From: an uncultured Prevotellaceae bacterium
GTDB lineage: Bacteria; Bacteroidota; Bacteroidia; Bacteroidales; Muribaculaceae
Assembly: GCA_947169265.1 (NCBI GenBank)
Contig: CAMVPC010000016.1
Location: forward strand, 3,169-67,168
Length of the DNA: 64,000 bases
Reading direction: 5' to 3'
Shown here: in pieces, positions 53,659 through 64,000 of the stretch
Numbering within the stretch: position 1 is the stretch's first letter
Layout: each line of letters begins with the position of its first letter
Notes under the pieces: generated by a model
Databases searched by the model: none
Told to the model about the DNA's origin: nothing
What the model saw: only the letters and a program-made list of their open reading frames with translations
Made by a program: the position numbers and the translations under genes

Positions 53659-54624
53659 TCAATTCACTACGTTGATGGGCTTGCCGGCGAGGTAGGATTC
53701 GATGTTGTCGGCCAGTACTTTATGGAGGCGGCGGCGCGCCTCGTTGCTCGTCCAGCCCAGGTGGGGCGTGATGTGGCAGTTGGGTAGCGAGGTTACCGGG
53801 TTGTCGGCCTTGGGCGGCTCGTCGTTGAGCACGTCGAGAGCGGCAGCGGCGAGACGTCCTTCTTTCAATGCTGAGGCCAAAGCGTCTTCGTCGATGAGGG
53901 CACCGCGCGATGTGTTGATGAGAATAGCCGTGGGCTTCATCAGGGCGAGACGGCGTTTACCGACGAGCCTTCGCGTTTCGGGCGTGAGCGGGCAGTGCAG
54001 CGACACCACGTCGGCGCGCGTGAAGAGGTCATCAAGACTTTCGGCCTTGGTGACGAAGGGTGGTAACTGCCCGGGTGCCTTCGACGAGAAAGCGAGAATC
54101 TTCATACCCAGGGCATGTGCGGTGGTAGCCACCGCGGTGCCAATGTTGCCCATTCCCACGATGCCCATCGTTTTGTCGGCCAGCTCGATGAAGGGGCGGT
54201 CCCAATAGGTGTAATCGGAACAACGGCTCCACACACCCTGCCGCGTCTGCTCGGCATAGTGCGCTGTGCCCGTGGTGATGTCGAGCAAGTGAGCGATGGC
54301 GATTTGTGCCACCGACGCCGTGCTGTAAGCGGGCACGTTGGTCACTACAATGCCATGTTCGGTGGCTGCCTCGATGTCAACAATATTAAAGCCGGTGGCG
54401 ATGACACCGATGTATCGCAGCTCGGGCAACCGCTCGATGGTCTCGCGCGAGAAAGGCACTTTATTAGTGAGCACGATTTGCGCGCCGCGCGCCCGCTCAA
54501 TCATTTCGTTGCCCTGACTGGTGCGGTCAAACACGGTAAGGTCGCCAAGCCTGGCGAGTGGCTCCCACGAGATGTCGCCGGGATTGCCCGCGGCGCCGTC
54601 AAGTACTACTATTTTCTGTTTCAT
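53659..54624 (-). CDS. D-2-hydroxyacid dehydrogenase (glycerate dehydrogenase/HprA-like)
   Basis: NPGDISW, ATGFNIVD, GIVGMGNIG, LHCPLT, INTSRG, DVL..EPP, and TPHLGW motifs. ATG 54624 used as start; TAAATTTG promoter at about 54663-70. Confidence 0.92.
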   Translation of the reverse strand: MKQKIVVLDGAAGNPGDISWEPLARLGDLTVFDRTSQGNEMIERARGAQIVLTNKVPFSRETIERLPELRYIGVIATGFNIVDIEAATEHGIVVTNVPAYSTASVAQIAIAHLLDITTGTAHYAEQTRQGVWSRCSDYTYWDRPFIELADKTMGIVGMGNIGTAVATTAHALGMKILAFSSKAPGQLPPFVTKAESLDDLFTRADVVSLHCPLTPETRRLVGKRRLALMKPTAILINTSRGALIDEDALASALKEGRLAAAALDVLNDEPPKADNPVTSLPNCHITPHLGWTSNEARRRLHKVLADNIESYLAGKPINVVN

Positions 54625-54781
54625 GAAGTGAAAGTTTTGTGGATTATGAATGATTTTTGGCGCAAATTTAGCAAAAAAATGGCTCAAACATAAAAAAATT
54701 GCGTTAATTGCCTGATTTGTAGCGGTGTATTGTTGTCGGCTTTTGGCGTTAAAAACGCCCTCGACAATAATTCGGCAATTT

Positions 54782-55036
54782 TTATACCGGTATGACTTCC
54801 GCGTCAGAAAGCTCGATGCCTCCAAAAGAGAGTGTGGGGCGGTCGCTGGAGTAAATCTCGATGGCATAGGGCATGGCGGATTGGAATGGGAACCCTTTTA
54901 CAAGTCCTTTCACTTTGTAGTCCATGCCTTCGTAAAATGTTGCAGCCTCTTCCCTTGTGGCTTTGACGCAGACCTGCACCTCTTGTCCGAGGTCTTTTTT
55001 GTCTGCTTCACTTTGATACATGAGTACGGCCACCAA
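54782..55036 (-). CDS. Small hypothetical ORF, possibly a gene fragment
   Basis: 84-aa ORF; TATCTTTG promoter at 55176-83 upstream; hairpin downstream at about 54733-68. Confidence 0.35.
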   Translation of the reverse strand: MVAVLMYQSEADKKDLGQEVQVCVKATREEAATFYEGMDYKVKGLVKGFPFQSAMPYAIEIYSSDRPTLSFGGIELSDAEVIPV

Positions 55037-55212: not shown

Positions 55213-55668
55213 TCATATATTTTTTTCAAGTTTATTGCGATATTCATTTTTATAGGGATACAAACTACTCTGTTCGGTCACTCCGACGAACAGAATCCTG
55301 TCTGCCATTTCACATACATATTTGTTCCTAGCCATTGCAGTCATCTTTGACTGGCGGATGGCAGTACTAACGGAGATTATCAATAGACGGTTCTGAGCCA
55401 ATGGCTCTTTTAGTTCGTCAGGAATAACCTTATACATCTTTCGTGCAAGCACAATGATAATGGGCTGACTGCCCTTCAGCAGGAAGTGAAGCACGTCTTG
55501 CTCCAACTTGCTACTGAAGCCGCTGATTACACACGCCCCACGATTGCGCATTTCTGTTGCCCAATCATACACTTGCAGCACTGTTTCCGAAGAAATGGTG
55601 CTCGATGCCAAGAATGCTGTCTTCCTCAGCTTCAGCAGTTCCTGATTGCCAAGATACTCTACCGTCAT
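55213..55668 (-). CDS. Stand-alone short DprA/Smf-like (SLOG superfamily) protein
   Basis: YLGN.ELLK..KTAFLAS, VISGFSSKLEQDV, IIIVLA, and AMARNKYVCEMAD; Rossmannoid SLOG core without the DprA SAM or wHTH domains. Confidence 0.7.
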   Translation of the reverse strand: MTVEYLGNQELLKLRKTAFLASSTISSETVLQVYDWATEMRNRGACVISGFSSKLEQDVLHFLLKGSQPIIIVLARKMYKVIPDELKEPLAQNRLLIISVSTAIRQSKMTAMARNKYVCEMADRILFVGVTEQSSLYPYKNEYRNKLEKNI

Positions 55669-55678
55669 AGTCCCTCAA

Positions 55679-57145
55679 TTACGTCTCTGCATTGTCTTCA
55701 ATAATTTCCCAGTGACCACTATAACCACTGCCGACATATTTGATATGAGCGAGTTTATTGATATGCCTCTTTATTGTTTTAGACGTAAAACCGCTTAATG
55801 TCGCTAATTCTTCTGTAGTAACTTTAGGATTTTTCCTAATCTGTTCTTCTATCCATATATCAAGTGCATCACCTTGAGTGCCACCTTGAGTGCCACCTTG
55901 AGTGCCACCTTGGGTATCACCTTGAGGGACATCTTGAGGGACATCTTGAGGGACATCCACAGTTGAAAGCACAGTTACTTCAAATGCAGTCAACTTTGAC
56001 ACATCGAAAACAGCCTCCTTGTTGCCATTTTCAAGCAGCATATCCTGCACACGTCTTATACCTTGGTTGAACATATTGACATACTTCATCTCTTTCATGG
56101 CTTCCGCTATAATAGGATTGCGATAGTCGTTTACATTGGGAAAATTCTCAGGACGTGCCTCACCATATAACCCTCCGGCGTTCATAATTTCGATATGGTC
56201 GTCAAACTGATATAGCCGGATTGGCATATTCGATTGATAGTCACGATGCATACAGGCATTCATCATCAACTCACGCAATGCGTTGTTGGGATAATTGATA
56301 ACGGTCTTCTCACGGAACAGACTCACAGCGACGGGTCTTTGTGTGATAATGGCATCACTGACAAAGGATTCCAATGCGGGTAGCAACTGGAAAAGCGGGC
56401 CCTGAAAGCGTTTCTCGTTCAACACCTCACCGCCAATAGTCTTGCCTGCAAAGCGTACAAACTGAACGTATGCCCCTGGCAGATAATACCGCGGATTTTT
56501 GCCAAACAAGATGATGGCTGCGTATGTAGGGCAACCATGAATGCGGTCATACAGACGGACTGAAGCCAACTGCTCCTGGATGTCCCGTTTGTCATCAGCC
56601 AAGACCTCTGGGGTCACTACAGAAGGTAGATACTCCTTCTTAATATACTCCAGATTCAAGTCATCCAATGTCGCACCAAGACAAGGTGTAGCATCAAAAG
56701 TTGCCATATATGCCATGCGTCGTTCCGTTAATATCCGTTCTTCCGCTTCACTGGCTATGTCACGTCTGGGACCGATACGCACGAACACCCTTCCACGATA
56801 CCGCACAGGAGGCAGCAGCGAAGGGGAAACCTCTGCTACCAGCAAATCACCATCAGGAAATTCCACCCGCTCTACCGTCATCACAGGTAATGGTAGGATG
56901 TTACCATCCGAGCGGATGCCAGAAATCTTTTTCAGCAGAGCATCGTCCACCTTCAGTCCCGACAGCCGTCCGTCATCATAGGCACCTATCAGCAGATAAC
57001 CCTTTTGCCGAGAGTCTGGCAAATCATTGGAGAAGGCACAAATGGCTTCACAGAATTTGTCCATGTTCGTCGTGGATACCGTTCGCTCTACCCGAAAATT
57101 CTCCGTGCTGTGCAGCAATGCCTGTACTTCTTCTTTTGATATCAT
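55679..57145 (-). CDS. Schlafen/AlbA_2 domain, RecG-C-like ATP-binding domain and C-terminal winged HTH
   Basis: ENFRVERT, EAICAFSN, LLIGAYDDG (AlbA_2); ALRELMMNACMHRDY, NAGGLYG, YRNPIIAE; HTH TTEELATLSG..KTIKRHI..L..VGS..SGHW. Confidence 0.85.
   Translation of the reverse strand: MISKEEVQALLHSTENFRVERTVSTTNMDKFCEAICAFSNDLPDSRQKGYLLIGAYDDGRLSGLKVDDALLKKISGIRSDGNILPLPVMTVERVEFPDGDLLVAEVSPSLLPPVRYRGRVFVRIGPRRDIASEAEERILTERRMAYMATFDATPCLGATLDDLNLEYIKKEYLPSVVTPEVLADDKRDIQEQLASVRLYDRIHGCPTYAAIILFGKNPRYYLPGAYVQFVRFAGKTIGGEVLNEKRFQGPLFQLLPALESFVSDAIITQRPVAVSLFREKTVINYPNNALRELMMNACMHRDYQSNMPIRLYQFDDHIEIMNAGGLYGEARPENFPNVNDYRNPIIAEAMKEMKYVNMFNQGIRRVQDMLLENGNKEAVFDVSKLTAFEVTVLSTVDVPQDVPQDVPQGDTQGGTQGGTQGGTQGDALDIWIEEQIRKNPKVTTEELATLSGFTSKTIKRHINKLAHIKYVGSGYSGHWEIIEDNAET
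55871..55954. repeat. Seven 12-bp tandem repeats encoding a DVPQ/GGTQ linker
   Basis: (accttgagtgcc)x3, accttgggtatc, accttgagggac, (atcttgagggac)x2. Confidence 0.95.
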
Positions 57146-57191
57146 AATTACTTTCTTTTTGATTCAAATATTCTCTTACTTCTTGCGATTG

Positions 57192-57199
57192 CAAAGTTA
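57192..57199 (-). promoter_or_regulatory. -7 promoter element TAACTTTG for the Schlafen-SLOG pair
   Basis: caaagtta on the + strand, about 45 nt upstream of ATG 57145. Confidence 0.6.
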
Positions 57200-57204
57200 A
57201 ATCT

Positions 57205-60200
57205 TTAATTTATATTCCGCGTATTTATCTGATAGTATTTATCTTCTTCCTTATATGTAGATATAAATTTCCGATTAAGCAAATATAATATTAATTCTCT
57301 ATTATAGTGCCCTTTATTTATCTTAGGACGTAAACCTTTCTGCATCGCAATTTCTGCATATTCTGCTCCCATCGTGCTTAGAGCCTCTTTAATAAATGCA
57401 TCATTAATATCTTGATGTTCAACATAATGCATAAATGCTTTAACTTTCAGTTCTATATTATTCGATGCAGATATATAGTTGATAAAAACATCTTTCTTTT
57501 CTTTTAATCTATCCAAATGCCCATTGACAAAAAATAGGCAAATGGAGTTCGCCAAAGAAGTCGATATATTAAAATCAACTGGCAATGAATAAACCACCTG
57601 AACTTTTTCCTCCTTTTTTAAAGATGACGATTTTACTAATCCTTCTGCGATATCAGATGATAAGGGATATAAACTAATATCTTTGAGGTAATCTGTTTTA
57701 TTATTGATGATAAAAGTAATTGTCAGTTGAGGATACTTTTCACATATAAATTTGTAATAGTATTCATTAAACTTGATACCGCTTGTATCTATTAGATATG
57801 ACATTCTATTACTCTCAAGTCCTGTTAAATCGTATGCGGTAAATATTCTATCAAAACTGTCCCTAAATTTCTTGTATGAAGAATAATTTAATACATTTGT
57901 TCCAACAAAATATGTAAACATTTTGCTCTTTATTGCTTCTGACAATACAGATGTTGCTTTTACAGAACATAATTCGTCTATATTCTTTTCTATATAATCA
58001 ACAAGTTCATCCCTTTTTATATTATCGTCTTCTTCATTGACAAAATCTTCAATATTCTCCCATCTGGGCTTCAAAATATTTGTCGCTATTGACATGATTT
58101 TCCTCTCGTTGTCTAAAATGTCAGACAAGTTATTTATCTTATTGACTTGCTTTCTTAAGTATTCTTTGGTCTTGTCACTAACTTGACATGTGTTTACAAT
58201 ACACAACAAATTCTCCTCTGTTTCTTCTACACTTGAATCGGGAAAGCACCGGATGTATTCATCCATATTATTATCCATGTCATCCATAACATCAGTATTT
58301 CCAATTCCTCTAATCGTAGTCATGCTTGCCATGCGATAAGATGCGATTTTATCTGGTGCCAAAAAAGATACGATACTTAATAGATTGTCTCTGCGACGTT
58401 CAAAAAAGCATCCATCAATTACATATGACATAAAATCTGGAGAAAGTGAATTAGCGTTTAGGTTATAGAATCTTAGATTCCTTTTTTGAGTAACATTCAT
58501 GATCCTCTTAAGTCCAATAATTCCAATACGTTCATTAAGCCAACCAAAATTATCGCACATATGGATATCAAAATCATCATTTTCTTTTCCAATGACATCA
58601 AAATTAACATATCTCAAAAACATCTCAAAGAAAATGTCAAAGCGACTTCTATCTCTTTCTTTTCCTTCATATAGACATTCTACATCAAAACGCGTCCATT
58701 TCGCAAATATTCTTTCGAACAACACAGAACAATCGGCATGTGCCTTATAAAAAGCAAGCACAAATTCTTTTTCTCTTTTGCTTACGATGTACTTTATTAT
58801 TTTATCCAGTTTTGAAGATATGTCTATATTGTCTACATGATCAGACATGTATTTCACTAATGAAACATTTAATACTCCGCCATTATTATATGATTTAGCA
58901 GGTATCTCTTCTATTACAGACTCAAATTTGCATAGTTGATATGTATATTCTTTTTTGTTTCCAATTCTTAGGTCTGCAATGAAGTCTTTATCTTCTGGCA
59001 TTAGGGTTCCTGGATAGAAATAGGAAATATAATCGTAATAAAATTCATTTATATACCCTTCTTTCAATAAGAATTCAACAAGTTTTGTTTTGTCATCTAA
59101 CTTGCTAATGTCAACATGAAAAGATTCTACTTTGGGAATTCGAATCAGTTCTGAAATACTCATCTGCTGATATTTAGATATCGCCATTTCTAACTGCTCT
59201 ATTTCTTTCCTTTTTTGAGCAATTACTTCTGATTCGAAGTTCAATCTTTGTGTATAACTATATTCAGAATCAACAGCCTTTTCAACGTCGCTAAATTTGA
59301 TATCTAAAGTTTCTGTTGATAAGTTGTTATAGTAGTAGTAATACTCGTATTGATTAAACTCATCATTAATCAGTTTCGTGAATTTGTTTTCATCATCAAT
59401 GAGTTCCTTCGGGAGCATTTTTTCTCCTTTTTTTGTAATGAATCTATAGATTCTTGGTTTTTTCTTCAAATACTCCATTACGTATAATGACCTCAAATCT
59501 TTCCCGTTGTCAATTCTGTTTTTCACAATTATCTCGTTTAGTTGTGTTTTAAGTTCTGCTATTTTCTTTTGGCTTGATTCTGTAATCTCATCTATGTATT
59601 TATGTTTGCTTGAGATAATTGTATACACAACCCCTTTACGATTATGTAAGTCTGCAAAATCCTTGGGAAAATAATTTTTATAAACAATCATTCCTAAGAG
59701 ATTCTTTGATGAAATCTTTTCGCCTATTTTGGACCGATATTGCAAATACTCATCAACTATATTATACAATATTCTCATGTCATCAATATAAAATCCAAGT
59801 TCCTTACAAGTTGTCTCAGTTATTTCATTAACTCCCTTTTCTTGTAATGCAGATATCAGTTTGTCACAAGCGTTAGAAGAATTTACGACAGGTATAACTG
59901 TCGTTATATAATCAAAGAATTTAGTGCGATTTGTGTCATGGAAGATATCATCCCTAACTGCATATATAAAAACTATACGTCTACCAATAGAAGTAGAGGC
60001 ATTCAGTAATTGGTTTATCTCTCTCAACTTTAGAAAGATATGATTTGTATCAAATCTATCCAGATCTTCTATAATAACAACATTGTATTTTGTGACCTCA
60101 AAGAAATAAATTATCTCATCCAAATGTTTGTTAAATATGGATGTGTTTTCTTTAATATCAATCTCTCCATTCTTGAAATTCAGTTTGTTGATTTTAGAGT

Positions 60201-60972
60201 TATATGTTGAAACAATAATATAACTAAGGATATAGATGGATATGATTATTAGATATAACATACATATTACATCCCATATTTGTTTCCATCTTTTACTGCA
60301 CGAGAATACTTCACATAAAGAATCTACCATTATAAAATTTGGCATAAATAAGACAATTGCTGCAATTACAGCAACTATCAGTGAGGTCGAAATTGGCAAG
60401 GCCTTCTTCCATTTTATGTCCTGTATTCTTTTTAGTCTTGATTGTCTGAGTTTATGAGCCTTTTCTTTATATATGATTTGTTGAAGTATGCTATATTCTA
60501 TCAGATGATTAATTGCATCCTTGTCTATTGTTTTTTGATTGTTGTTCGCTTTTGGTTTCATAGCGGGAACCATCTGCTTATTTGCTTCTTCATTTGTAGT
60601 TTTATCTTTTTCTACAAGTTCTTTATAAAGCGTGTCATCTTCCAAAGTGGCCAAAGAGATGCATAGATAGTTCGCTTTACGATAATCGCGCATTAGGGTT
60701 TGGAGAACAGAACTTTTCCCTGCTCCATATGGCCCTGTCAGTGCTATATTTTTGACATTTCTATTTCCAAGCTTATTGGCAATATCTTTTACTGGTCCAT
60801 ATTTAGGATTGTCATTCCCATTCTCGTCTTTAACCTCTATAAAAGCGGGTGCTAAATCAAAATGACTATTGTCATCTTTAAAATATCGAAGCAAAGGATC
60901 TTCATGTATAGACTTGATTCTGTCCACACATTGATTAAATCGTATAACAAAGGACTTAATGCTAAATTTCAT
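57205..60972 (-). CDS. YobI/KAP-family P-loop NTPase with two TM helices and a long C-terminal region
   Basis: Walker A GPYGAGKSS, two TMs (approx. residues 190-260), Walker B VVIIEDLDRF, FIYAVRDDIF, and RTKFFDYITTVIPVVN. Confidence 0.85.
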   Translation of the reverse strand: MKFSIKSFVIRFNQCVDRIKSIHEDPLLRYFKDDNSHFDLAPAFIEVKDENGNDNPKYGPVKDIANKLGNRNVKNIALTGPYGAGKSSVLQTLMRDYRKANYLCISLATLEDDTLYKELVEKDKTTNEEANKQMVPAMKPKANNNQKTIDKDAINHLIEYSILQQIIYKEKAHKLRQSRLKRIQDIKWKKALPISTSLIVAVIAAIVLFMPNFIMVDSLCEVFSCSKRWKQIWDVICMLYLIIISIYILSYIIVSTYNSKINKLNFKNGEIDIKENTSIFNKHLDEIIYFFEVTKYNVVIIEDLDRFDTNHIFLKLREINQLLNASTSIGRRIVFIYAVRDDIFHDTNRTKFFDYITTVIPVVNSSNACDKLISALQEKGVNEITETTCKELGFYIDDMRILYNIVDEYLQYRSKIGEKISSKNLLGMIVYKNYFPKDFADLHNRKGVVYTIISSKHKYIDEITESSQKKIAELKTQLNEIIVKNRIDNGKDLRSLYVMEYLKKKPRIYRFITKKGEKMLPKELIDDENKFTKLINDEFNQYEYYYYYNNLSTETLDIKFSDVEKAVDSEYSYTQRLNFESEVIAQKRKEIEQLEMAISKYQQMSISELIRIPKVESFHVDISKLDDKTKLVEFLLKEGYINEFYYDYISYFYPGTLMPEDKDFIADLRIGNKKEYTYQLCKFESVIEEIPAKSYNNGGVLNVSLVKYMSDHVDNIDISSKLDKIIKYIVSKREKEFVLAFYKAHADCSVLFERIFAKWTRFDVECLYEGKERDRSRFDIFFEMFLRYVNFDVIGKENDDFDIHMCDNFGWLNERIGIIGLKRIMNVTQKRNLRFYNLNANSLSPDFMSYVIDGCFFERRRDNLLSIVSFLAPDKIASYRMASMTTIRGIGNTDVMDDMDNNMDEYIRCFPDSSVEETEENLLCIVNTCQVSDKTKEYLRKQVNKINNLSDILDNERKIMSIATNILKPRWENIEDFVNEEDDNIKRDELVDYIEKNIDELCSVKATSVLSEAIKSKMFTYFVGTNVLNYSSYKKFRDSFDRIFTAYDLTGLESNRMSYLIDTSGIKFNEYYYKFICEKYPQLTITFIINNKTDYLKDISLYPLSSDIAEGLVKSSSLKKEEKVQVVYSLPVDFNISTSLANSICLFFVNGHLDRLKEKKDVFINYISASNNIELKVKAFMHYVEHQDINDAFIKEALSTMGAEYAEIAMQKGLRPKINKGHYNRELILYLLNRKFISTYKEEDKYYQINTRNIN

Positions 60973-61092
60973 TTCTTTTTTCTTTTATAATAAACATCTC
61001 TTTTGGAGTTACCTACTAAATGTATCGTAGTTACCCACTAACTCATAAGAGTTAAGCAGTTACTTGAAATGTAATCATCTATCTTTTGCTCG

Positions 61093-61917
61093 TCACTCAT
61101 AATCACATTCAATATCTAAATAAACATTCTCTTTCAAATACAAAGCCAATTCTTTGTGTGGTTTTATTATTTTGTTGAAAGTTTCTTGCGCTATATTTGC
61201 AATCCAATTCTCTGAACCTTCTGGAGGTGTTTGCCCCAAGTCTAAATAATCCACATAATTCGAAGCCATACAATACTGTGGGTTAAGATATAAGCATGAC
61301 GCAAAGTGGAAAAGGAACAAATCATTTATACAGGTATCTAATAAGTTCAGATATCTTGTTCTATATTGATTATGTATTTCATTGTCATTAGTTATCATCC
61401 ACTGGTAACTATTTATATGCATATTATCATCTAATATATCCCTGATTCTTCGATACCTTTTCTCAAAATCGAAAAAACAGAATAGAGACTTATATGATTC
61501 TGAACGCTCAAAATATTTTATCACGTCACCATACTTGGGCATTTTGAAGTTCTCTTCTATCCATTTTTTTACACGTTCTGCAGTTAGCAAGAATACTTCA
61601 GGATTTTTTCTTTTTTGTTCTTGCCGATATACCGTAAAATATATATCCAGAAGTATCTCGTCAAAGTACTTCCTTACGATAGCAAAAGCGTCATTAATAT
61701 GTGCTTTATTCAATAACAAGCATACAGAATCTATCGTTCCCTTTATTGAACTAAAAATATAAGTGTCGATATTGGGAAAAGTTCCAGGAAGTCCTTCAGG
61801 CAAGAAGTTAAAAGAACTATATGATAGGAAATCATAGAAATCTTTTATAGAATCCAAGTTCTTAAAGATTATATGTTCCCTATATTCTTTAGGCAATTGT
61901 TCTATGTCCCATTTCAT
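61093..61917 (-). CDS. Hypothetical all-alpha protein, possibly HEPN-like
   Basis: NDAFAIVRKYFD and YRRIRDILDDNMH; helical; the R..H spacing is one residue longer than the canonical Rx4-6H. Confidence 0.55.
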   Translation of the reverse strand: MKWDIEQLPKEYREHIIFKNLDSIKDFYDFLSYSSFNFLPEGLPGTFPNIDTYIFSSIKGTIDSVCLLLNKAHINDAFAIVRKYFDEILLDIYFTVYRQEQKRKNPEVFLLTAERVKKWIEENFKMPKYGDVIKYFERSESYKSLFCFFDFEKRYRRIRDILDDNMHINSYQWMITNDNEIHNQYRTRYLNLLDTCINDLFLFHFASCLYLNPQYCMASNYVDYLDLGQTPPEGSENWIANIAQETFNKIIKPHKELALYLKENVYLDIECDYE

Positions 61918-61949
61918 ATTGTTATCTTCTTTTAAATCTGGTCAAGAAG

Positions 61950-63734
61950 TTAATTTGTTTTATATACTGATACACAATGACATTTACATTGTGCATATGT
62001 ATTTGGAGAAGAATTCTGTGAAGATATCCAACTAAAGCATTTGGGGCAAAATGTCTTTTCATATAATTTTTGAACATTATATGCAAACTCTCTGATTTCT
62101 TGATCGCTCAACGCAATTGCCCATTCATTATAGTGACATGCTAAGAGATTCCTGATATATAAAGAATTATGAATTGCCTCAATAAGTGGTTCCAAATCTT
62201 TTGATTTTTTTAGTTGTTTTCTTATTCCTGGCCATAAATCACCAATAGTATATTTGTCATCTCGAACTCTCTTAATATCTATTCTTAATTCTATACTCAA
62301 ATTTTGACAAATCTTTTCTAACATCAGTCCTGACATTGATGCCATTAAAGTTGTATTTCCCGATTTAATTGCAATTTCTAAAGAGTCATCATACATCTTG
62401 GCTAATTGTGACATAATGATAGGCCCTTGATCAAAACTCCAACTCGCTATTTGAAATTCTTTAAATTCATGATTATTATTAGTGAACAAATATCGCAATT
62501 GATTTAGCCATAGTCTATCGTGGGCGGTAATAAATATTTGCCAATCCTTTAATTCTGAAAGAATGTAATTAACAAATTTTGCCCGTATTTGTGTGTCAAC
62601 ACTTTGGAGAACATCATCTAGTATAAAAACCTTTGCCTGTCCTCTGTTAGCACCAACCCTAATAATAGATACATATAGCAGCAATATTAGCAAATCATAA
62701 TTCGCTTCACTGAAAATTGAACTTGGCGTAACTGTTAGACCATTTTTTAATTTTATTAATATTTCTAACGAAGTATCTGTTTTTTTCCCAAAAGACAATT
62801 GTATATAATCAATATAGTCAACAGAGGAAGTTGATTTAAATGCTTCTGTCAAGTATGAACTCGCTTCTGTTAAAAACTCCATATTCTGCTTTAATCTCTT
62901 ATTGGATTTTACAGATGATGTATCAGTTAGTTTCGTAATCTGCCCCTTTATCATCTTAATCTCCAAAAGTTTCTCAACCAATGCATTTGATATTCTTGCA
63001 ATTTCGTCATATTCTTCTTGAGAAACCAATTTACGCCCTTGGGTTCTTTGCCGTGGATTGCCATTTTGTAAAACGACACTCCTTTTTATGCAAAGATCTA
63101 TCGCTTCTTTATCATTTATAGAAAACCGATGTGGATTCACTCCAATTTTTTCTCCCAATATTTTTTTTAACTCGTCTCTACGCCTTTTAATACTTATGCA
63201 TTCTTCTTGAAGATCTTCTATTTCCGGATCTATTTCTAATAATACCTCTGAATCATTTTCGTCATTATCTGGTACTTGATAAATAAACTTGAAAAACAAG
63301 ATTTGACGTTCTATCCCTGACAAAATATTATAAGTCATAATGTCATTTCGCCTTAAAGCTACAGGAACATACGAGAAATTCTCATTGCTTTCCTTGTCAG
63401 TCGCTTTGTAAATAACTTTATCATTCTTTACAAAAATATCTATACCTCTTTCTATAATACAACCGTTATCTAACTCAACCTTAGTCTTTGCAGGAATAGA
63501 CTGGGTATAACATTTCGAAATAGCAGAAGGTCTACGGCTATTTTTTATTTTTGAATCACGTTCTATACGTGCTTGCAAATTAAACTCAATAGCATCAACT
63601 ATAGACGATTTCCCTGTACCATTGTCACCATAAATTATAGTAGAAACAGCATCTCCATTTCTATTTGAGAAATCCAATTCTACACTTTTAGGGATTCCTC
63701 GAAAGGCTTCAATATATAATTTTTTGATTTTCAT
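61950..63734 (-). CDS. ABC/SMC-type ATPase fused to a C-terminal HEPN domain and Zn finger (PrrC/RloC-like)
   Basis: FRGIP, Walker A GDNGTGKSS, central coiled coil, signature FSEAN, Walker B FILDDVLQSVD, switch ITAHD, HEPN RNLLACH, and CPKC...CKC. Confidence 0.8.
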   Translation of the reverse strand: MKIKKLYIEAFRGIPKSVELDFSNRNGDAVSTIIYGDNGTGKSSIVDAIEFNLQARIERDSKIKNSRRPSAISKCYTQSIPAKTKVELDNGCIIERGIDIFVKNDKVIYKATDKESNENFSYVPVALRRNDIMTYNILSGIERQILFFKFIYQVPDNDENDSEVLLEIDPEIEDLQEECISIKRRRDELKKILGEKIGVNPHRFSINDKEAIDLCIKRSVVLQNGNPRQRTQGRKLVSQEEYDEIARISNALVEKLLEIKMIKGQITKLTDTSSVKSNKRLKQNMEFLTEASSYLTEAFKSTSSVDYIDYIQLSFGKKTDTSLEILIKLKNGLTVTPSSIFSEANYDLLILLLYVSIIRVGANRGQAKVFILDDVLQSVDTQIRAKFVNYILSELKDWQIFITAHDRLWLNQLRYLFTNNNHEFKEFQIASWSFDQGPIIMSQLAKMYDDSLEIAIKSGNTTLMASMSGLMLEKICQNLSIELRIDIKRVRDDKYTIGDLWPGIRKQLKKSKDLEPLIEAIHNSLYIRNLLACHYNEWAIALSDQEIREFAYNVQKLYEKTFCPKCFSWISSQNSSPNTYAQCKCHCVSVYKTN

Positions 63735-63750
63735 AAATATAAAATCTTAG

Positions 63751-63851
63751 TTATTCTTCGTTTAATTCATCACCCATACGATATTTGATGTCGTAGTTCT
63801 TCGCAAGCGAAGCGGCAGAGCTGAGCGGATGATGAAATCTAATTCTTCTTC
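63751..63851 (-). pseudogene. Relic C-terminal tail of an R-M (type IIG/Eco57I-like) methyltransferase gene, interrupted by a 29-bp insertion
   Basis: Reads EEELDFII (63851-63828), then a 29-bp insert (63827-63799), then NYDIKYRMGDELNEE* (63798-63751). No long upstream ORF in frame within the window. Confidence 0.6.
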
Positions 63852-64000
63852 GGCGTAATCATATTGAACAGGGGAACGATTCTCTTTTGTATTAAACACA
63901 GATGTTAAACTAATAAATGTTCTGTTACGTCAATTTCATGCATTTGAGGTCTGGACAAGGACCATTTAACACGTTTGTCTTTACCTATAGTAAAAACAAT

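What the first reader, a model, noticed from the sequence alone, without database searches (positions are those of the whole stretch)
55213..63851. Five-gene co-oriented candidate defence island with at least two layers
Seen: GC falls from 40/60 (53761-53820) to 19/60 (58021-58080). Five minus-strand genes have gaps of 32, 120, 59 and 10 bp: ABC-HEPN, possible HEPN-like, KAP NTPase, Schlafen-ATPase, SLOG. The last two are visibly less AT-rich and have their own promoter. Known: each domain family recurs in anti-phage or conflict systems. Inference: an accreting defence hotspot rich in predicted RNases/tRNases. I do not recognise this combination as a named system. No integrase lies in the window.
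Basis: partly seen in the sequence, partly recalled or inferred. Interest (0 to 1): 0.7.

Follow-up and report, generated by a model that had tools for sequence, protein, structure and literature searches.

The report
Mosaic anti-phage island beside rpsO
The five genes are real and are the cargo of a 13-kb decayed mobile island that sits between a dehydrogenase gene and rpsO; close relatives lack the island or carry other cargo, and it holds independent anti-virus modules, some known and some uncharacterised, not one new system.

Summary
In detail: five minus-strand ORFs, the stated gaps and the exact GC counts are all present. The region is part of a 12,973-bp insertion (window 54,664 to about 67,661, past the window end). 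It is bounded by a 25-bp direct repeat and carries a truncated tyrosine integrase, an XRE regulator and a GmrSD type IV restriction enzyme just outside the window.

Related metagenome contigs show the empty site, with the dehydrogenase gene 134 bp from rpsO. A 98%-identical island has SIR2 and DUF4062 genes in place of genes 1-3.

The cargo consists of separate modules:
- GmrSD.
- A stand-alone ABC ATPase with an invariant R-N-x4-H motif and a zinc ribbon. It is built like PrrC/RloC, but membership is not shown.
- An all-alpha orphan weakly related to DUF5677. A HEPN fold is not supported.
- A bona fide Tmn.
- A Schlafen-GHKL-HTH protein coupled to a mini-DprA.

In about 80 related loci only the last two genes travel together. 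Homologues of Tmn and of the ABC ATPase are nearly absent from 60 species of the same genus.

Verdict: an ordinary kind of object, a defence hotspot, documented unusually cleanly and containing two or three untested gene families. No function was assayed.

The parts
54664..54688 (.). Left direct repeat (attL-like), AAATTTAGCAAAAAAATGGCTCAAA. The right copy lies outside the window at about 67637-67661.
   Evidence: Two copies in L002 against 0.00 expected by chance. The repeat is a single copy in the empty-site contig L089.
54761..54771 (-). ATTATTGTCGA repeat, a possible integrase arm-type site. Three more copies lie next to the right repeat, outside the window.
   Evidence: Four matches cluster at the two island ends; 1 of 200 shuffles reached four matches.
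54782..55036 (-). 84-aa ORF in the spacer between attL and gene 5; function unknown.
   Evidence: ORF found; no Pfam hit.
55213..55668 (-). Gene 5: mini-DprA / SLOG-type Rossmann protein, 151 aa.
   Evidence: PF02481 29.8 bits (cut-off 29.6) and PADLOC PsyrA 3e-13. More than 2,100 homologues, 85-95% identical across Prevotella/Segatella. In closely related Prevotellaceae contigs it lies 10 bp behind a gene-4-type gene or its stump.
55679..57145 (-). Gene 4: Schlafen(AlbA_2)-GHKL ATPase-wHTH protein ('Schlatpase-HTH'), 488 aa.
   Evidence: PF04326 8e-14, PF13749 4e-14, HTH_24 9e-4. PDB 3lmm 2e-06. Its motif is E14-x4-E19-x-T21, where the family has Ex4(E/D)xK (PMC13056530).
57192..57199 (-). 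TAACTTTG, a Bacteroidetes-type -7 promoter box 54 nt upstream of gene 4.
   Evidence: Pattern scan. Consensus match only.
57205..60972 (-). [quoted passage not shown]
   Evidence: PF20693 2.2e-113 and PADLOC Tmn 1.7e-93. Walker A GPYGAGKS at 80-87, two TM helices at 189-259 inside the P-loop domain, Walker B VVIIEDLD at about 298.
60977..61054 (.). 78-bp conserved joint upstream of gene 3, containing the palindrome TAACTCTTATGAGTTA and GGTAACT repeats.
   Evidence: 88% identical in sister island L091, where it precedes a DUF4062 gene instead of Tmn.
61093..61917 (-). Gene 2: all-alpha orphan of 274 aa, a remote relative of DUF5677.
   Evidence: No hit in Pfam, NCBIfam or PADLOC. 18 of 27 family members weakly hit PF18928, best E 1.6e-4. 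611 representative clusters. Model pLDDT 83, pTM 0.84, with no PDB or viral fold neighbour.
61950..63734 (-). Gene 1: stand-alone ABC (Rad50/SMC-type) ATPase with a C-terminal alpha-helical R-N-x4-H domain and a CxxC...CxC zinc ribbon, 594 aa.
   Evidence: SMC_N 4.6e-14. Foldseek finds Rad50/SMC heads at E 5e-15. Invariant residues are K42, D373, D374, H405, R528, N529, H534, C563, C566, C583 and C585. There is no conserved neighbour in 13 loci.
63735..63904 (.). Spacer between GmrSD and gene 1, holding the cargo-swap breakpoint at about 63749-63828.
   Evidence: The L091 alignment to the island stops here.
63905..64000 (-). 3' end of the GmrSD type IV restriction gene (818 aa). The gene continues to about 66361, beyond the window.
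   Evidence: GmrSD_N 1.4e-35, GmrSD_C 2.1e-29, PADLOC Orf5 2.7e-197 and HEC-06 1.7e-87.

Best explanation
The five genes are the larger part of the cargo of a 12,973-bp integrative island. The island inserted into the 134-bp spacer between a 2-hydroxyacid dehydrogenase gene and rpsO in a rumen/gut Prevotellaceae genome. It has since lost its integrase catalytic domain and is now fixed in place.

Gene order, all on the minus strand, is: attR, integrase stump, XRE regulator, GmrSD, ABC-ATPase nuclease, DUF5677-like orphan, Tmn, Schlafen-GHKL-HTH, mini-DprA, attL.

The island is a mosaic of independently exchangeable anti-phage modules, not one system.

Shown here:
- The insertion and its boundaries.
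- The cargo swap in a sister island.
- The independent distribution of the modules elsewhere.
- The family-defining features of Tmn and GmrSD.

Inferred:
1. GmrSD cuts modified phage DNA.
2. The ABC ATPase acts like PrrC/RloC. Its ATPase head would hold a C-terminal HEPN-like RNase inactive until infection.
3. Tmn senses a phage protein through its helical C-terminal region and collapses the cytoplasm, as shown for E. coli Tmn.
4. The Schlafen-GHKL protein oligomerises on ATP and cuts tRNA. The 10-bp-coupled mini-DprA would act as its regulator or antitoxin.
5. Tmn may be potentiated by the neighbouring switch ATPases, as reported in E. coli.
For: Insertion:
- Contigs L089, L090 and L092 carry an identical S15 and the same left flank, with the dehydrogenase gene next to rpsO.
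- Their alignment to the island flanks overlaps by 26 bp.
- That overlap is a 25-bp direct repeat present at both island ends, with 0 expected by chance.
- The integrase has only its arm-binding and core-binding parts, plus a frameshift.

Foreign origin:
- GC is 0.31-0.46 against 0.60 in the flank and 0.547 in the genome.
- A Tmn homologue occurs in 1 of 60 same-genus species and a gene 1 homologue in 0 of 60.

Mosaic structure:
- L091 is 98% identical over rpsO, the integrase stump, XRE and GmrSD, but has SIR2_2 and a DUF4062 gene instead of genes 1-3.
- The XRE is 92.6% identical to the one heading a different island made of XRE, a type IIG R-M enzyme, a gene 2 homologue and a Schlafen-ATPase.
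- A tblastn search of about 80 loci shows gene 1 and gene 2 never co-occurring with each other or with Tmn, while genes 4-5 always occur together.

Defence context of gene 1 relatives: a type I R-M system overlapping by 1 nt, BrxL, a WYL regulator, GIY-YIG, and a Streptomyces plasmid.

Tmn features are met (PMC13001434).

Literature:
- Tmn synergy with PrrC, Septu and Gabija (10.1101/2022.08.21.504612).
- Schlafen-GHKL mechanism (10.64898/2026.05.29.728809; PMC13056530).
Against:
- The HEPN assignment of gene 1 rests on a conserved motif and on architecture only. Pfam, a PDB profile search and hhalign found nothing for its C-terminal domain.
- Gene 2 has no assignable function, and some relatives sit inside capsule-synthesis loci, not defence islands.
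- Gene 4 lacks the catalytic lysine. The same K-to-T change is present in a 64%-identical relative.
- Mini-DprA relatives follow many different upstream genes, so its partnership with gene 4 is not exclusive.
- The empty-site contigs are only 93% identical on the dehydrogenase flank. They are close relatives, not the same strain.
- The promoter calls are consensus matches.
Confidence: 0.85

Rival explanations
1. The five (or eight) co-oriented genes form one new multi-gene defence system, whose components need each other and are transcribed as one operon.
For: All genes are co-oriented with short gaps of 10-170 bp. Only two Bacteroidetes-type -7 boxes were found, upstream of XRE and of gene 4, so long co-transcripts are possible.
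Against: Homologues of gene 1 (about 55 loci) and gene 2 (13 loci) never co-occur with each other, with Tmn or with genes 4-5. The sister island L091 keeps GmrSD but replaces genes 1-3. GC differs between blocks: 0.31, 0.365 and 0.44-0.46. Tmn and GmrSD-like enzymes are reported to protect on their own (PMC13001434; 10.1101/2024.01.29.577857).
Confidence: 0.04
2. Gene 1 and gene 2, 32 bp apart, are a two-gene system: an ABC ATPase sensor with a separate effector, in the manner of Lamassu, AbiL, Septu or PARIS.
For: The gap is 32 bp and the two genes have the same GC of 0.31. Gene 1 gives weak PADLOC hits to LmuB, AbiLi, PtuA and AriA.
Against: The PADLOC hits are 22-47 bits and mostly confined to the N-terminal P-loop region. 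None of 13 orthologue loci of gene 1 has a gene 2 relative or any conserved neighbour. Gene 2 relatives sit beside type IIG or type I-like R-M genes, toxin-antitoxin pairs, a Schlafen-ATPase or capsule genes, never beside a gene 1 relative. Gene 1 already carries its own putative effector domain.
Confidence: 0.05
3. The genes mainly serve the mobile element, as addiction or toxin-antitoxin and inter-element competition modules, and do not protect the host from phage. Alternatively they are decaying passengers with no current function.
For: The island is a dead integrative element. Copies of the gene 4-5 unit elsewhere are 5'-truncated, which shows decay in this family. The catalytic lysine of gene 4 is replaced. 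A tested DUF5677 ORF is not listed among the ORFs reported as protective (PMC12632615).
Against: All ORFs in this island except the integrase are intact and full-length relative to homologues. The catalytic ATPase motifs of gene 1 and Tmn are invariant or present. The K-to-T change in gene 4 recurs at 64% identity, so it is a conserved clade trait and not random decay. Stabilising the element and defending the host are not mutually exclusive roles.
Confidence: 0.1

Closest known systems
[quoted passage not shown]
   Same: Gene 3 has the full YobI-ATPase domain (2e-113). [quoted passage not shown]
   Different: Only profile positions 53-675 of 1273 align with the PADLOC Tmn model; the C-terminal half is unrelated in sequence. 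This is the expected variable sensor region. The host is a Bacteroidota member, not an Enterobacteriaceae member. The only same-genus homologue is 28% identical.
PrrC and RloC anticodon nucleases (ABC ATPase + HEPN)
   Same: Gene 1 is a single polypeptide with an N-terminal Rad50/SMC-type ABC ATPase and a C-terminal alpha-helical domain. That domain has an invariant R-N-x4-H motif, which fits Rx4-6H with a polar residue after the arginine. Relatives sit beside R-M and BREX genes, and one overlaps hsdR by 1 nt.
   Different: The C-terminal domain shows no detectable sequence homology to PrrC or RloC. AAA_13 hits in relatives cover only the ATPase part and are mostly below the cut-off. There is no zinc hook in the coiled coil. 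There is an extra C-terminal four-Cys zinc ribbon. There is no obligatory R-M linkage. The family spans Bacteroidota, Actinomycetota, Gemmatimonadota, Spirochaetota and Bacillota, with longer cousins in Archaea.
GmrSD / BrxU / HEC-06 type IV restriction enzymes
   Same: The 818-aa protein just past the window end has both the GmrSD_N (DUF262) and GmrSD_C (DUF1524) domains. It matches PADLOC Orf5 at 3e-197 and HEC-06 at 2e-87.
   Different: It carries a C-terminal extension of about 280 aa with no Pfam match.
Prokaryotic Schlafen defence proteins (pSlfn; the 'Schlatpase-HTH' architecture)
   Same: Gene 4 has SLFN_AlbA_2 + GHKL (PF13749) + HTH. This is reported as the second most frequent pSlfn composition, and most Schlatpases are reported to carry an HTH tail.
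   Different: The catalytic motif reads Ex4ExT, not Ex4(E/D)xK. The gene is coupled by 10 bp to a mini-DprA gene, a pairing not mentioned in the papers read.
ShosA and PsyrA, the DprA-like antitoxins of the ShosTA and PsyrTA systems
   Same: Gene 5 matches the DprA-like part of PsyrA (3e-13) and weakly matches ShosA. It lies directly downstream of a putative toxic effector.
   Different: Gene 5 consists of the Rossmann core only (151 aa). The partner is not a PRTase or a RecQ-like helicase. Relatives follow many kinds of upstream gene.
Integrase-associated defence hotspots with swappable cargo
   Same: It has a site-specific insertion with direct repeats, an integrase at one end, low-GC cargo, and different cargo at the same site in related strains.
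   Different: The integrase is a stump, so the island is immobilised. Exchange seems to occur at conserved intergenic joints inside the island.

Membership tests
Tmn (YobI-family NTPase) | [quoted passage not shown] | tested here: met
   PF20693 2.2e-113 over residues 63-450; GPYGAGKS at 80-87; VVIIEDLD at about 298.
Tmn (YobI-family NTPase) | Two transmembrane helices inserted within the P-loop domain | tested here: met
   Hydrophobic segments at 189-223 and 230-259 lie between Walker A and Walker B. The feature is as defined in PMC13001434.
Tmn (YobI-family NTPase) | Alpha-helical solenoid C-terminal sensor region | not tested
   No structure was predicted for gene 3. Only the length and the lack of other domains are consistent.
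GmrSD type IV restriction enzymes | N-terminal DUF262 (ParB-like NTPase) plus C-terminal DUF1524 (HNH-type) domain | tested here: met
   GmrSD_N 1.4e-35 and GmrSD_C 2.1e-29; PADLOC Orf5 and HEC-06.
PrrC/RloC anticodon nucleases | N-terminal ABC ATPase with intact catalytic motifs | tested here: met
   SMC_N and AAA_23 hits. Rad50/SMC heads by Foldseek at E 5e-15. Invariant Walker A K42, Walker B D373/D374 and H-loop H405.
PrrC/RloC anticodon nucleases | C-terminal anticodon-nuclease (HEPN) domain homologous to that of PrrC/RloC | tested here: inconclusive
   R528, N529 and H534 are invariant and fit Rx4-6H. No Pfam, PDB-profile or hhalign signal was found. AAA_13 hits in relatives stop at profile position 591 of 713, before the nuclease part.
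PrrC/RloC anticodon nucleases | Embedding in a type I R-M operon (PrrC) or a coiled-coil zinc hook (RloC) | tested here: not met
   The upstream gene is GmrSD. Only 1 of 13 orthologue loci has hsdMSR. There is no CxxC in the 150-320 insert (sequence). The cysteines lie in a C-terminal ribbon.
HEPN superfamily (for gene 2) | Rx4-6H motif in a four-helix HEPN fold | tested here: not met
   The conserved pair is R159-x7-H167. A confident all-alpha model has no PDB or viral neighbour, best E 0.54 and 0.35. There is no profile similarity to the gene 1 C-terminal domain.
DUF5677 (PF18928) (for gene 2) | Match to the Pfam model above its gathering score | tested here: inconclusive
   18 of 27 family members match weakly, best E 1.6e-4, and the one score seen (16.2 bits) is below the 27.1-bit cut-off. 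The window's own protein gives no match.
Prokaryotic Schlafen nucleases (pSlfn / Schlatpase) | SLFN_AlbA_2 domain fused to a GHKL ATPase (PF13749), usually with an HTH tail | tested here: met
   PF04326 8.1e-14, PF13749 3.9e-14, HTH_24 9e-4.
Prokaryotic Schlafen nucleases (pSlfn / Schlatpase) | Catalytic Ex4(E/D)xK motif | tested here: not met
   The sequence is E14-NFRV-E19-R-T21. Both acidic residues are kept and the lysine is replaced by threonine. The same change occurs in relatives at 92% and 64% identity, while other Schlatpases in the fetched loci keep the lysine.
ShosTA / PsyrTA | DprA-like antitoxin paired with a PRTase or RecQ-like toxin | tested here: not met
   Gene 5 matches the DprA-like part of PsyrA (3e-13) and ShosA (0.003). 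Its partner is a Schlafen-GHKL protein.
Lamassu / AbiL / Septu / PARIS (ABC ATPase two-gene systems) | Cognate partner gene (LmuA, AbiLii, PtuB or AriB) next to the ATPase | tested here: not met
   Only weak PADLOC hits of 47 bits or less, mostly N-terminal. Gene 2 matches none of the partners. Orthologues have no conserved neighbour.

The most novel reading that the evidence does not exclude
Gene 1 founds an undescribed family of stand-alone 'guard' ribonucleases that spans many phyla. The architecture is an ABC ATPase switch, a divergent HEPN-like R-N-x(3-4)-H domain and a zinc ribbon, in 580-600 aa and 780-810 aa forms, the latter reaching Archaea. Members would work like PrrC/RloC beside DNA-targeting defences (GmrSD, type I R-M, BREX). 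In this island gene 1 would also potentiate the adjacent Tmn, as PrrC does in E. coli. In parallel, the mini-DprA would be a plug-in regulator shared by GHKL-ATPase effectors whose N-terminal domain can be swapped, for example Schlafen or cytidine deaminase.
Probability: 0.3. Interest if true: 0.6.

Novelty: new member of a known kind. Interest (0 to 1): 0.4.

Why it matters
- The locus gives a base-pair-resolved example of how a defence hotspot is built and remodelled in rumen/gut Prevotellaceae, a group in which few phage defences have been tested. The empty site, the att-like repeats, the dead integrase and a sister island with different cassettes are all in hand.
- It places a Tmn directly beside two ATPase-switch modules in Bacteroidota. 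This echoes the Tmn-PrrC, Tmn-PsyrTA and Tmn-AbiL co-occurrence and synergy reported for E. coli.
- It singles out three untested families for cloning:
  - the ABC-ATPase/R-N-x4-H/zinc-ribbon family (at least 625 homologues; none found in 50,697 phage genomes);
  - the DUF5677-like all-alpha family (611 representative clusters; no fold neighbour);
  - the mini-DprA that trails GHKL-ATPase effectors.

Tried and rejected
- Genus-level synteny. In 17 same-genus species the dehydrogenase gene and rpsO are on different contigs, and their neighbourhoods share no genes with this contig. That level is too distant to show an empty site. The look-up by identical S15 solved it.
- tRNA as integration target. 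There is none in the 16.8-kb stretch.
- HEPN proof for the gene 1 C-terminal domain. Whole-chain Foldseek is dominated by the ATPase head. Pfam on isolated C-terminal pieces, a PDB profile search and hhalign against gene 2 were all negative.
- RloC link through the longer 780-810 aa relatives. They do not match AAA_13 above its cut-off either.
- Gene 2. PDB sequence search, Foldseek against PDB and Foldseek against BFVD were all negative.
- The 'R-M methylase tail relic' in the spacer between GmrSD and gene 1. The frame YDYAEEELDFII is there, but no type IIG or type I enzyme in the fetched loci matches it.
- The 78-bp joint motif as a general cassette signal. It was found only in this island and in L091.
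- The sigma-70 promoter scan gave 60 sites against 51 expected and is not informative.
- Krishnan et al. 2020, the ABC ATPase classification, is not in the paper library, so I could not check whether the gene 1 family is named there.

Full report
**1. Observation**

The five minus-strand ORFs are at the stated coordinates, with gaps of 32, 120, 59 and 10 bp. The two 60-base GC counts are exact, 40/60 and 19/60.

| Feature | GC |
|---|---|
| Genome | 0.547 |
| Dehydrogenase gene | 0.60 |
| Genes 4-5 | 0.44-0.46 |
| Genes 1-3 | 0.31 |

The window is contig C16:3169-67168 of a 2.9-Mb, 74-contig assembly. The contig continues 5.6 kb past the window end, and I read that stretch as locus L002 (window coordinate = L002 coordinate + 52,831).

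**2. What lies beyond the window**

Three more minus-strand features follow gene 1:
- An 818-aa GmrSD type IV restriction enzyme (GmrSD_N 1.4e-35, GmrSD_C 2.1e-29; PADLOC Orf5 3e-197, HEC-06 2e-87).
- A 68-aa XRE regulator.
- A tyrosine-integrase stump.

The stump keeps the arm-binding domain (PF17293) and the core-binding part. It is frameshifted and ends where the catalytic domain should begin. After it come rpsO and a BspA-type LRR-dockerin gene. There is no tRNA gene.

**3. It is an insertion with exact ends**

Looking up contigs that encode the identical S15 protein gave three metagenome contigs: L089, L090 and L092. They have the same left flank as the window (Na/Ala symporter, SNF transporter, dehydrogenase), but the dehydrogenase gene lies 134 bp from rpsO.
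- L089 aligns with the island's left flank at 93% and with its right flank at 99.3%. The two alignments overlap by 26 bp.
- The overlap is a 25-bp direct repeat, AAATTTAGCAAAAAAATGGCT(C/T)AAA. It occurs at window 54664-54688 and again at about 67637-67661, and once in the empty site. None is expected by chance.
- The island is therefore 12,973 bp long.
- ATTATTGTCGA repeats cluster at both ends, one near the left repeat and three near the right. They look like arm-type sites.
- The 402-aa ORF call for the dehydrogenase over-extends into the island edge. Orthologues begin at residue 54-86, mostly 80-84, and the called gene in relatives has 322 aa.

**4. It is accessory and remodelled**

- Among 60 other species of the genus, a Tmn homologue occurs once, at 28% identity. 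A gene 1 homologue never occurs.
- The mini-DprA occurs in 17 of 300 other genomes sampled across the order.
- A sister island, L091, is 98% identical across rpsO, the integrase stump, XRE and GmrSD. It carries a SIR2_2 gene (875 aa) where genes 1 and 2 sit, and a DUF4062 gene where Tmn sits.
- The breakpoints lie in the spacer between GmrSD and gene 1 (about 63749-63828) and in a 78-bp joint upstream of Tmn (60977-61054). The joint is conserved in both islands and contains the palindrome TAACTCTTATGAGTTA.
- The XRE is 92.6% identical to the XRE that heads another island, made of XRE, a type IIG R-M enzyme, a gene 2 homologue and a Schlafen-ATPase.
- Composition shows at least four strata: integrase stump 0.54; XRE, genes 4-5 and the spacer 0.42-0.46; GmrSD 0.365; genes 1-3 0.31.

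**5. The modules are independent**

I ran a tblastn search with all island proteins against about 80 fetched loci.
- Gene 1 relatives (about 55 loci) never co-occur with gene 2, Tmn or genes 4-5.
- Gene 2 relatives (13 loci) never co-occur with gene 1 or Tmn.
- Genes 4 and 5 are together in 6 of 7 loci. The seventh is cut by a contig end.
- Clustering the neighbours of 13 gene 1 orthologues from five phyla found no conserved partner.

**6. Gene 1 (594 aa)**

- The N-terminal 430 residues are a Rad50/SMC-type ABC ATPase. The evidence is SMC_N 4.6e-14 and Foldseek hits to Rad50 and cohesin heads at E 5e-15, on a model with pLDDT 82.7.
- Walker A K42, Walker B D373/D374 and H405 are invariant in 33 sequences.
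- The C-terminal 160 residues are helical and end in a CxxC...CxC ribbon. R528, N529, H534 and the four cysteines are invariant, also in Actinomycetota, Gemmatimonadota, Spirochaetota and Bacillota.
- R-N-x4-H fits the HEPN Rx4-6H signature with the usual polar residue after the arginine (PMC3710099).
- I could not demonstrate homology. Pfam on the isolated domain, a PDB profile search and hhalign were all negative. AAA_13 hits in some relatives cover only the ATPase part and are mostly below the cut-off.
- Longer cousins of 780-810 aa in Elusimicrobiota, Archaea and Bacteroidota share the C-terminal module: RNxxx(x)H, or GNLLSH in several archaeal loci, plus the ribbon. They do not match AAA_13 above its cut-off either.
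- Neighbours of orthologues are hsdM-hsdS-hsdR (overlapping by 1 nt), BrxL, a WYL regulator and a GIY-YIG protein. On a Streptomyces plasmid the gene is a lone insert in a transfer cluster.
- No homologue was found in 50,697 phage records.
- I therefore call it built like PrrC/RloC, and I do not file it as a member of that family.

**7. Gene 2 (274 aa)**

- It gives no hit in Pfam, NCBIfam or PADLOC.
- The word-index search found 60 relatives. The exhaustive profile search found 611 representative clusters, typically 250-300 aa with no obvious added domains.
- 18 of 27 members weakly match DUF5677, best E 1.6e-4.
- A confident all-alpha model (pLDDT 83, pTM 0.84) has no neighbour in PDB or BFVD.
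- The conserved polar residues are R82, K83, D86, R159, H167 and N177. The R-to-H spacing is seven residues, outside the HEPN range.
- Relatives stand alone beside R-M genes, HigB-type toxin-antitoxin pairs, a Schlafen-ATPase or AAA_15 genes. They also occur inside capsule loci.
- DUF5677 is statistically enriched in recombinase-linked defence islands. The one DUF5677 ORF tested is not among the five ORFs the paper lists as protective (PMC12632615).
- Function: unknown. A stand-alone defence or abortive-infection-type protein is my best guess, at low confidence.

**8. Gene 3**

Gene 3 meets the defining Tmn features: the YobI domain, Walker A and B motifs, and two transmembrane helices inserted in the P-loop domain (PMC13001434). 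Its C-terminal half is unrelated in sequence to the E. coli profile, as expected for the variable sensor region.

**9. Genes 4 and 5**

- Gene 4 has the common 'Schlatpase-HTH' architecture: SLFN_AlbA_2 + GHKL + HTH (10.64898/2026.05.29.728809; PMC13056530).
- Its active-site motif reads Ex4ExT. The lysine-to-threonine change is shared by relatives at 92% and 64% identity, while other Schlatpases in the fetched loci keep the lysine.
- Gene 5 is a 151-aa DprA-like Rossmann core.
- The 2-kb gene 4-5 unit recurs at about 91% nucleotide identity in other Prevotellaceae contigs, always with the 10-bp gap. In some copies gene 4 is decapitated, starting near residue 176 or at residue 350.
- Across the order, about half of the mini-DprA genes follow a GHKL-ATPase protein. 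One of these has a cytidine deaminase in place of the Schlafen domain. The rest follow DUF3644, HipA-like, YhcG, UvrD-fragment or ImmA/DUF4411 genes.
I treat it as a lead that my neighbour survey partly confirms.

**10. Mechanism**

Shown: the insertion, the cargo exchange, the independence of the modules, and the family features of Tmn and GmrSD.

Inferred from the literature on relatives:
- GmrSD cuts modified DNA.
- Gene 1 is an ATP-gated RNase released on infection.
- Tmn senses a phage protein and causes plasmolysis.
- Gene 4 oligomerises on ATP and cleaves tRNA, with gene 5 as its regulator or antitoxin.

In E. coli, Tmn co-occurs with PrrC, AbiL, PsyrTA, Septu and CBASS II, and it synergises with Gabija, Septu I and PrrC (10.1101/2022.08.21.504612). 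Here Tmn is flanked by a PrrC-like ATPase and by a module with a PsyrA-like protein, so synergy is a reasonable hypothesis to test.

A Bacteroidetes -7 box was found only upstream of XRE and of gene 4.

**11. Verdict**

This is a well-delimited, strain-specific defence island of a familiar kind.
- It contains two known systems, Tmn and GmrSD.
- It contains one known architecture with a variant active site, the Schlafen-GHKL protein.
- It contains three uncharacterised families: the ABC-ATPase/R-N-x4-H/zinc-ribbon protein, the DUF5677-like orphan and the mini-DprA.

It is not a new multi-gene system.

Noticed in passing
L002 15391-16593 (about window 68222-69424, outside the window): The BspA-type LRR-dockerin gene downstream of rpsO is itself an indel. 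It is present here and in L091, L093 and L094, and absent from the empty-site contigs L089, L090 and L092.
   Followed up: partly
L089 10853-20276: In the contigs that lack this island, the other side of rpsO carries a second defence cluster: a Schlafen-GHKL protein (511 aa), an ASCH protein, a 682-aa GNAT protein, HNH_5, a 639-aa AAA_15 ATPase and an MmeI-type IIG enzyme. Both sides of rpsO are therefore hotspots in this lineage.
   Followed up: no
window 60977-61054: A 78-bp intergenic joint with a perfect palindrome (TAACTC-TTAT-GAGTTA) and GGTAACT repeats is conserved upstream of two unrelated cargo genes: Tmn here and a DUF4062 gene in L091. It may be an operator or a recombination joint. 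It was not found elsewhere in the genome or in the other loci.
   Followed up: partly
window 63751-63851: The spacer between GmrSD and gene 1 reads ...YDYAEEELDFII... in one frame, which another first-reader note calls an R-M methylase tail relic. It coincides with the cargo-swap breakpoint. No type IIG or type I enzyme in the fetched loci matched it.
   Followed up: partly
window 53659-54867: The 402-aa ORF for the 2-hydroxyacid dehydrogenase is over-extended. Orthologues align from residue 54-86, mostly 80-84, and the called gene in relatives has 322 aa, so the true start is near 54627, just inside the left repeat.
   Followed up: yes
L129 4108-5628: A 506-aa protein fuses a cytidine/dCMP deaminase domain to the GHKL ATPase (PF13749), in the position where Schlafen normally sits, and is followed about 650 bp downstream (a small opposite-strand ORF between) by a mini-DprA gene. 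This suggests effector swapping on a constant GHKL + mini-DprA chassis.
   Followed up: no
L003, L005 and L007 (gene 2 relatives): Relatives of gene 2 at about 40% identity sit inside or at the edge of capsular-polysaccharide loci, among glycosyltransferases and acyltransferases, not in obvious defence islands.
   Followed up: no
L002 11074-11913 (GmrSD residues about 540-818): The GmrSD protein has a C-terminal extension of about 280 aa with no Pfam match.
   Followed up: no
window 54782-55036: An 84-aa minus-strand ORF lies between gene 5 and the left repeat. It has no Pfam match, and coding status is unknown.
   Followed up: partly
L019 388-7251: In an Actinomycetales MAG the gene 1 homologue follows hsdM-hsdS-hsdR and overlaps hsdR by 1 nt, an arrangement reminiscent of PrrC.
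   Followed up: partly
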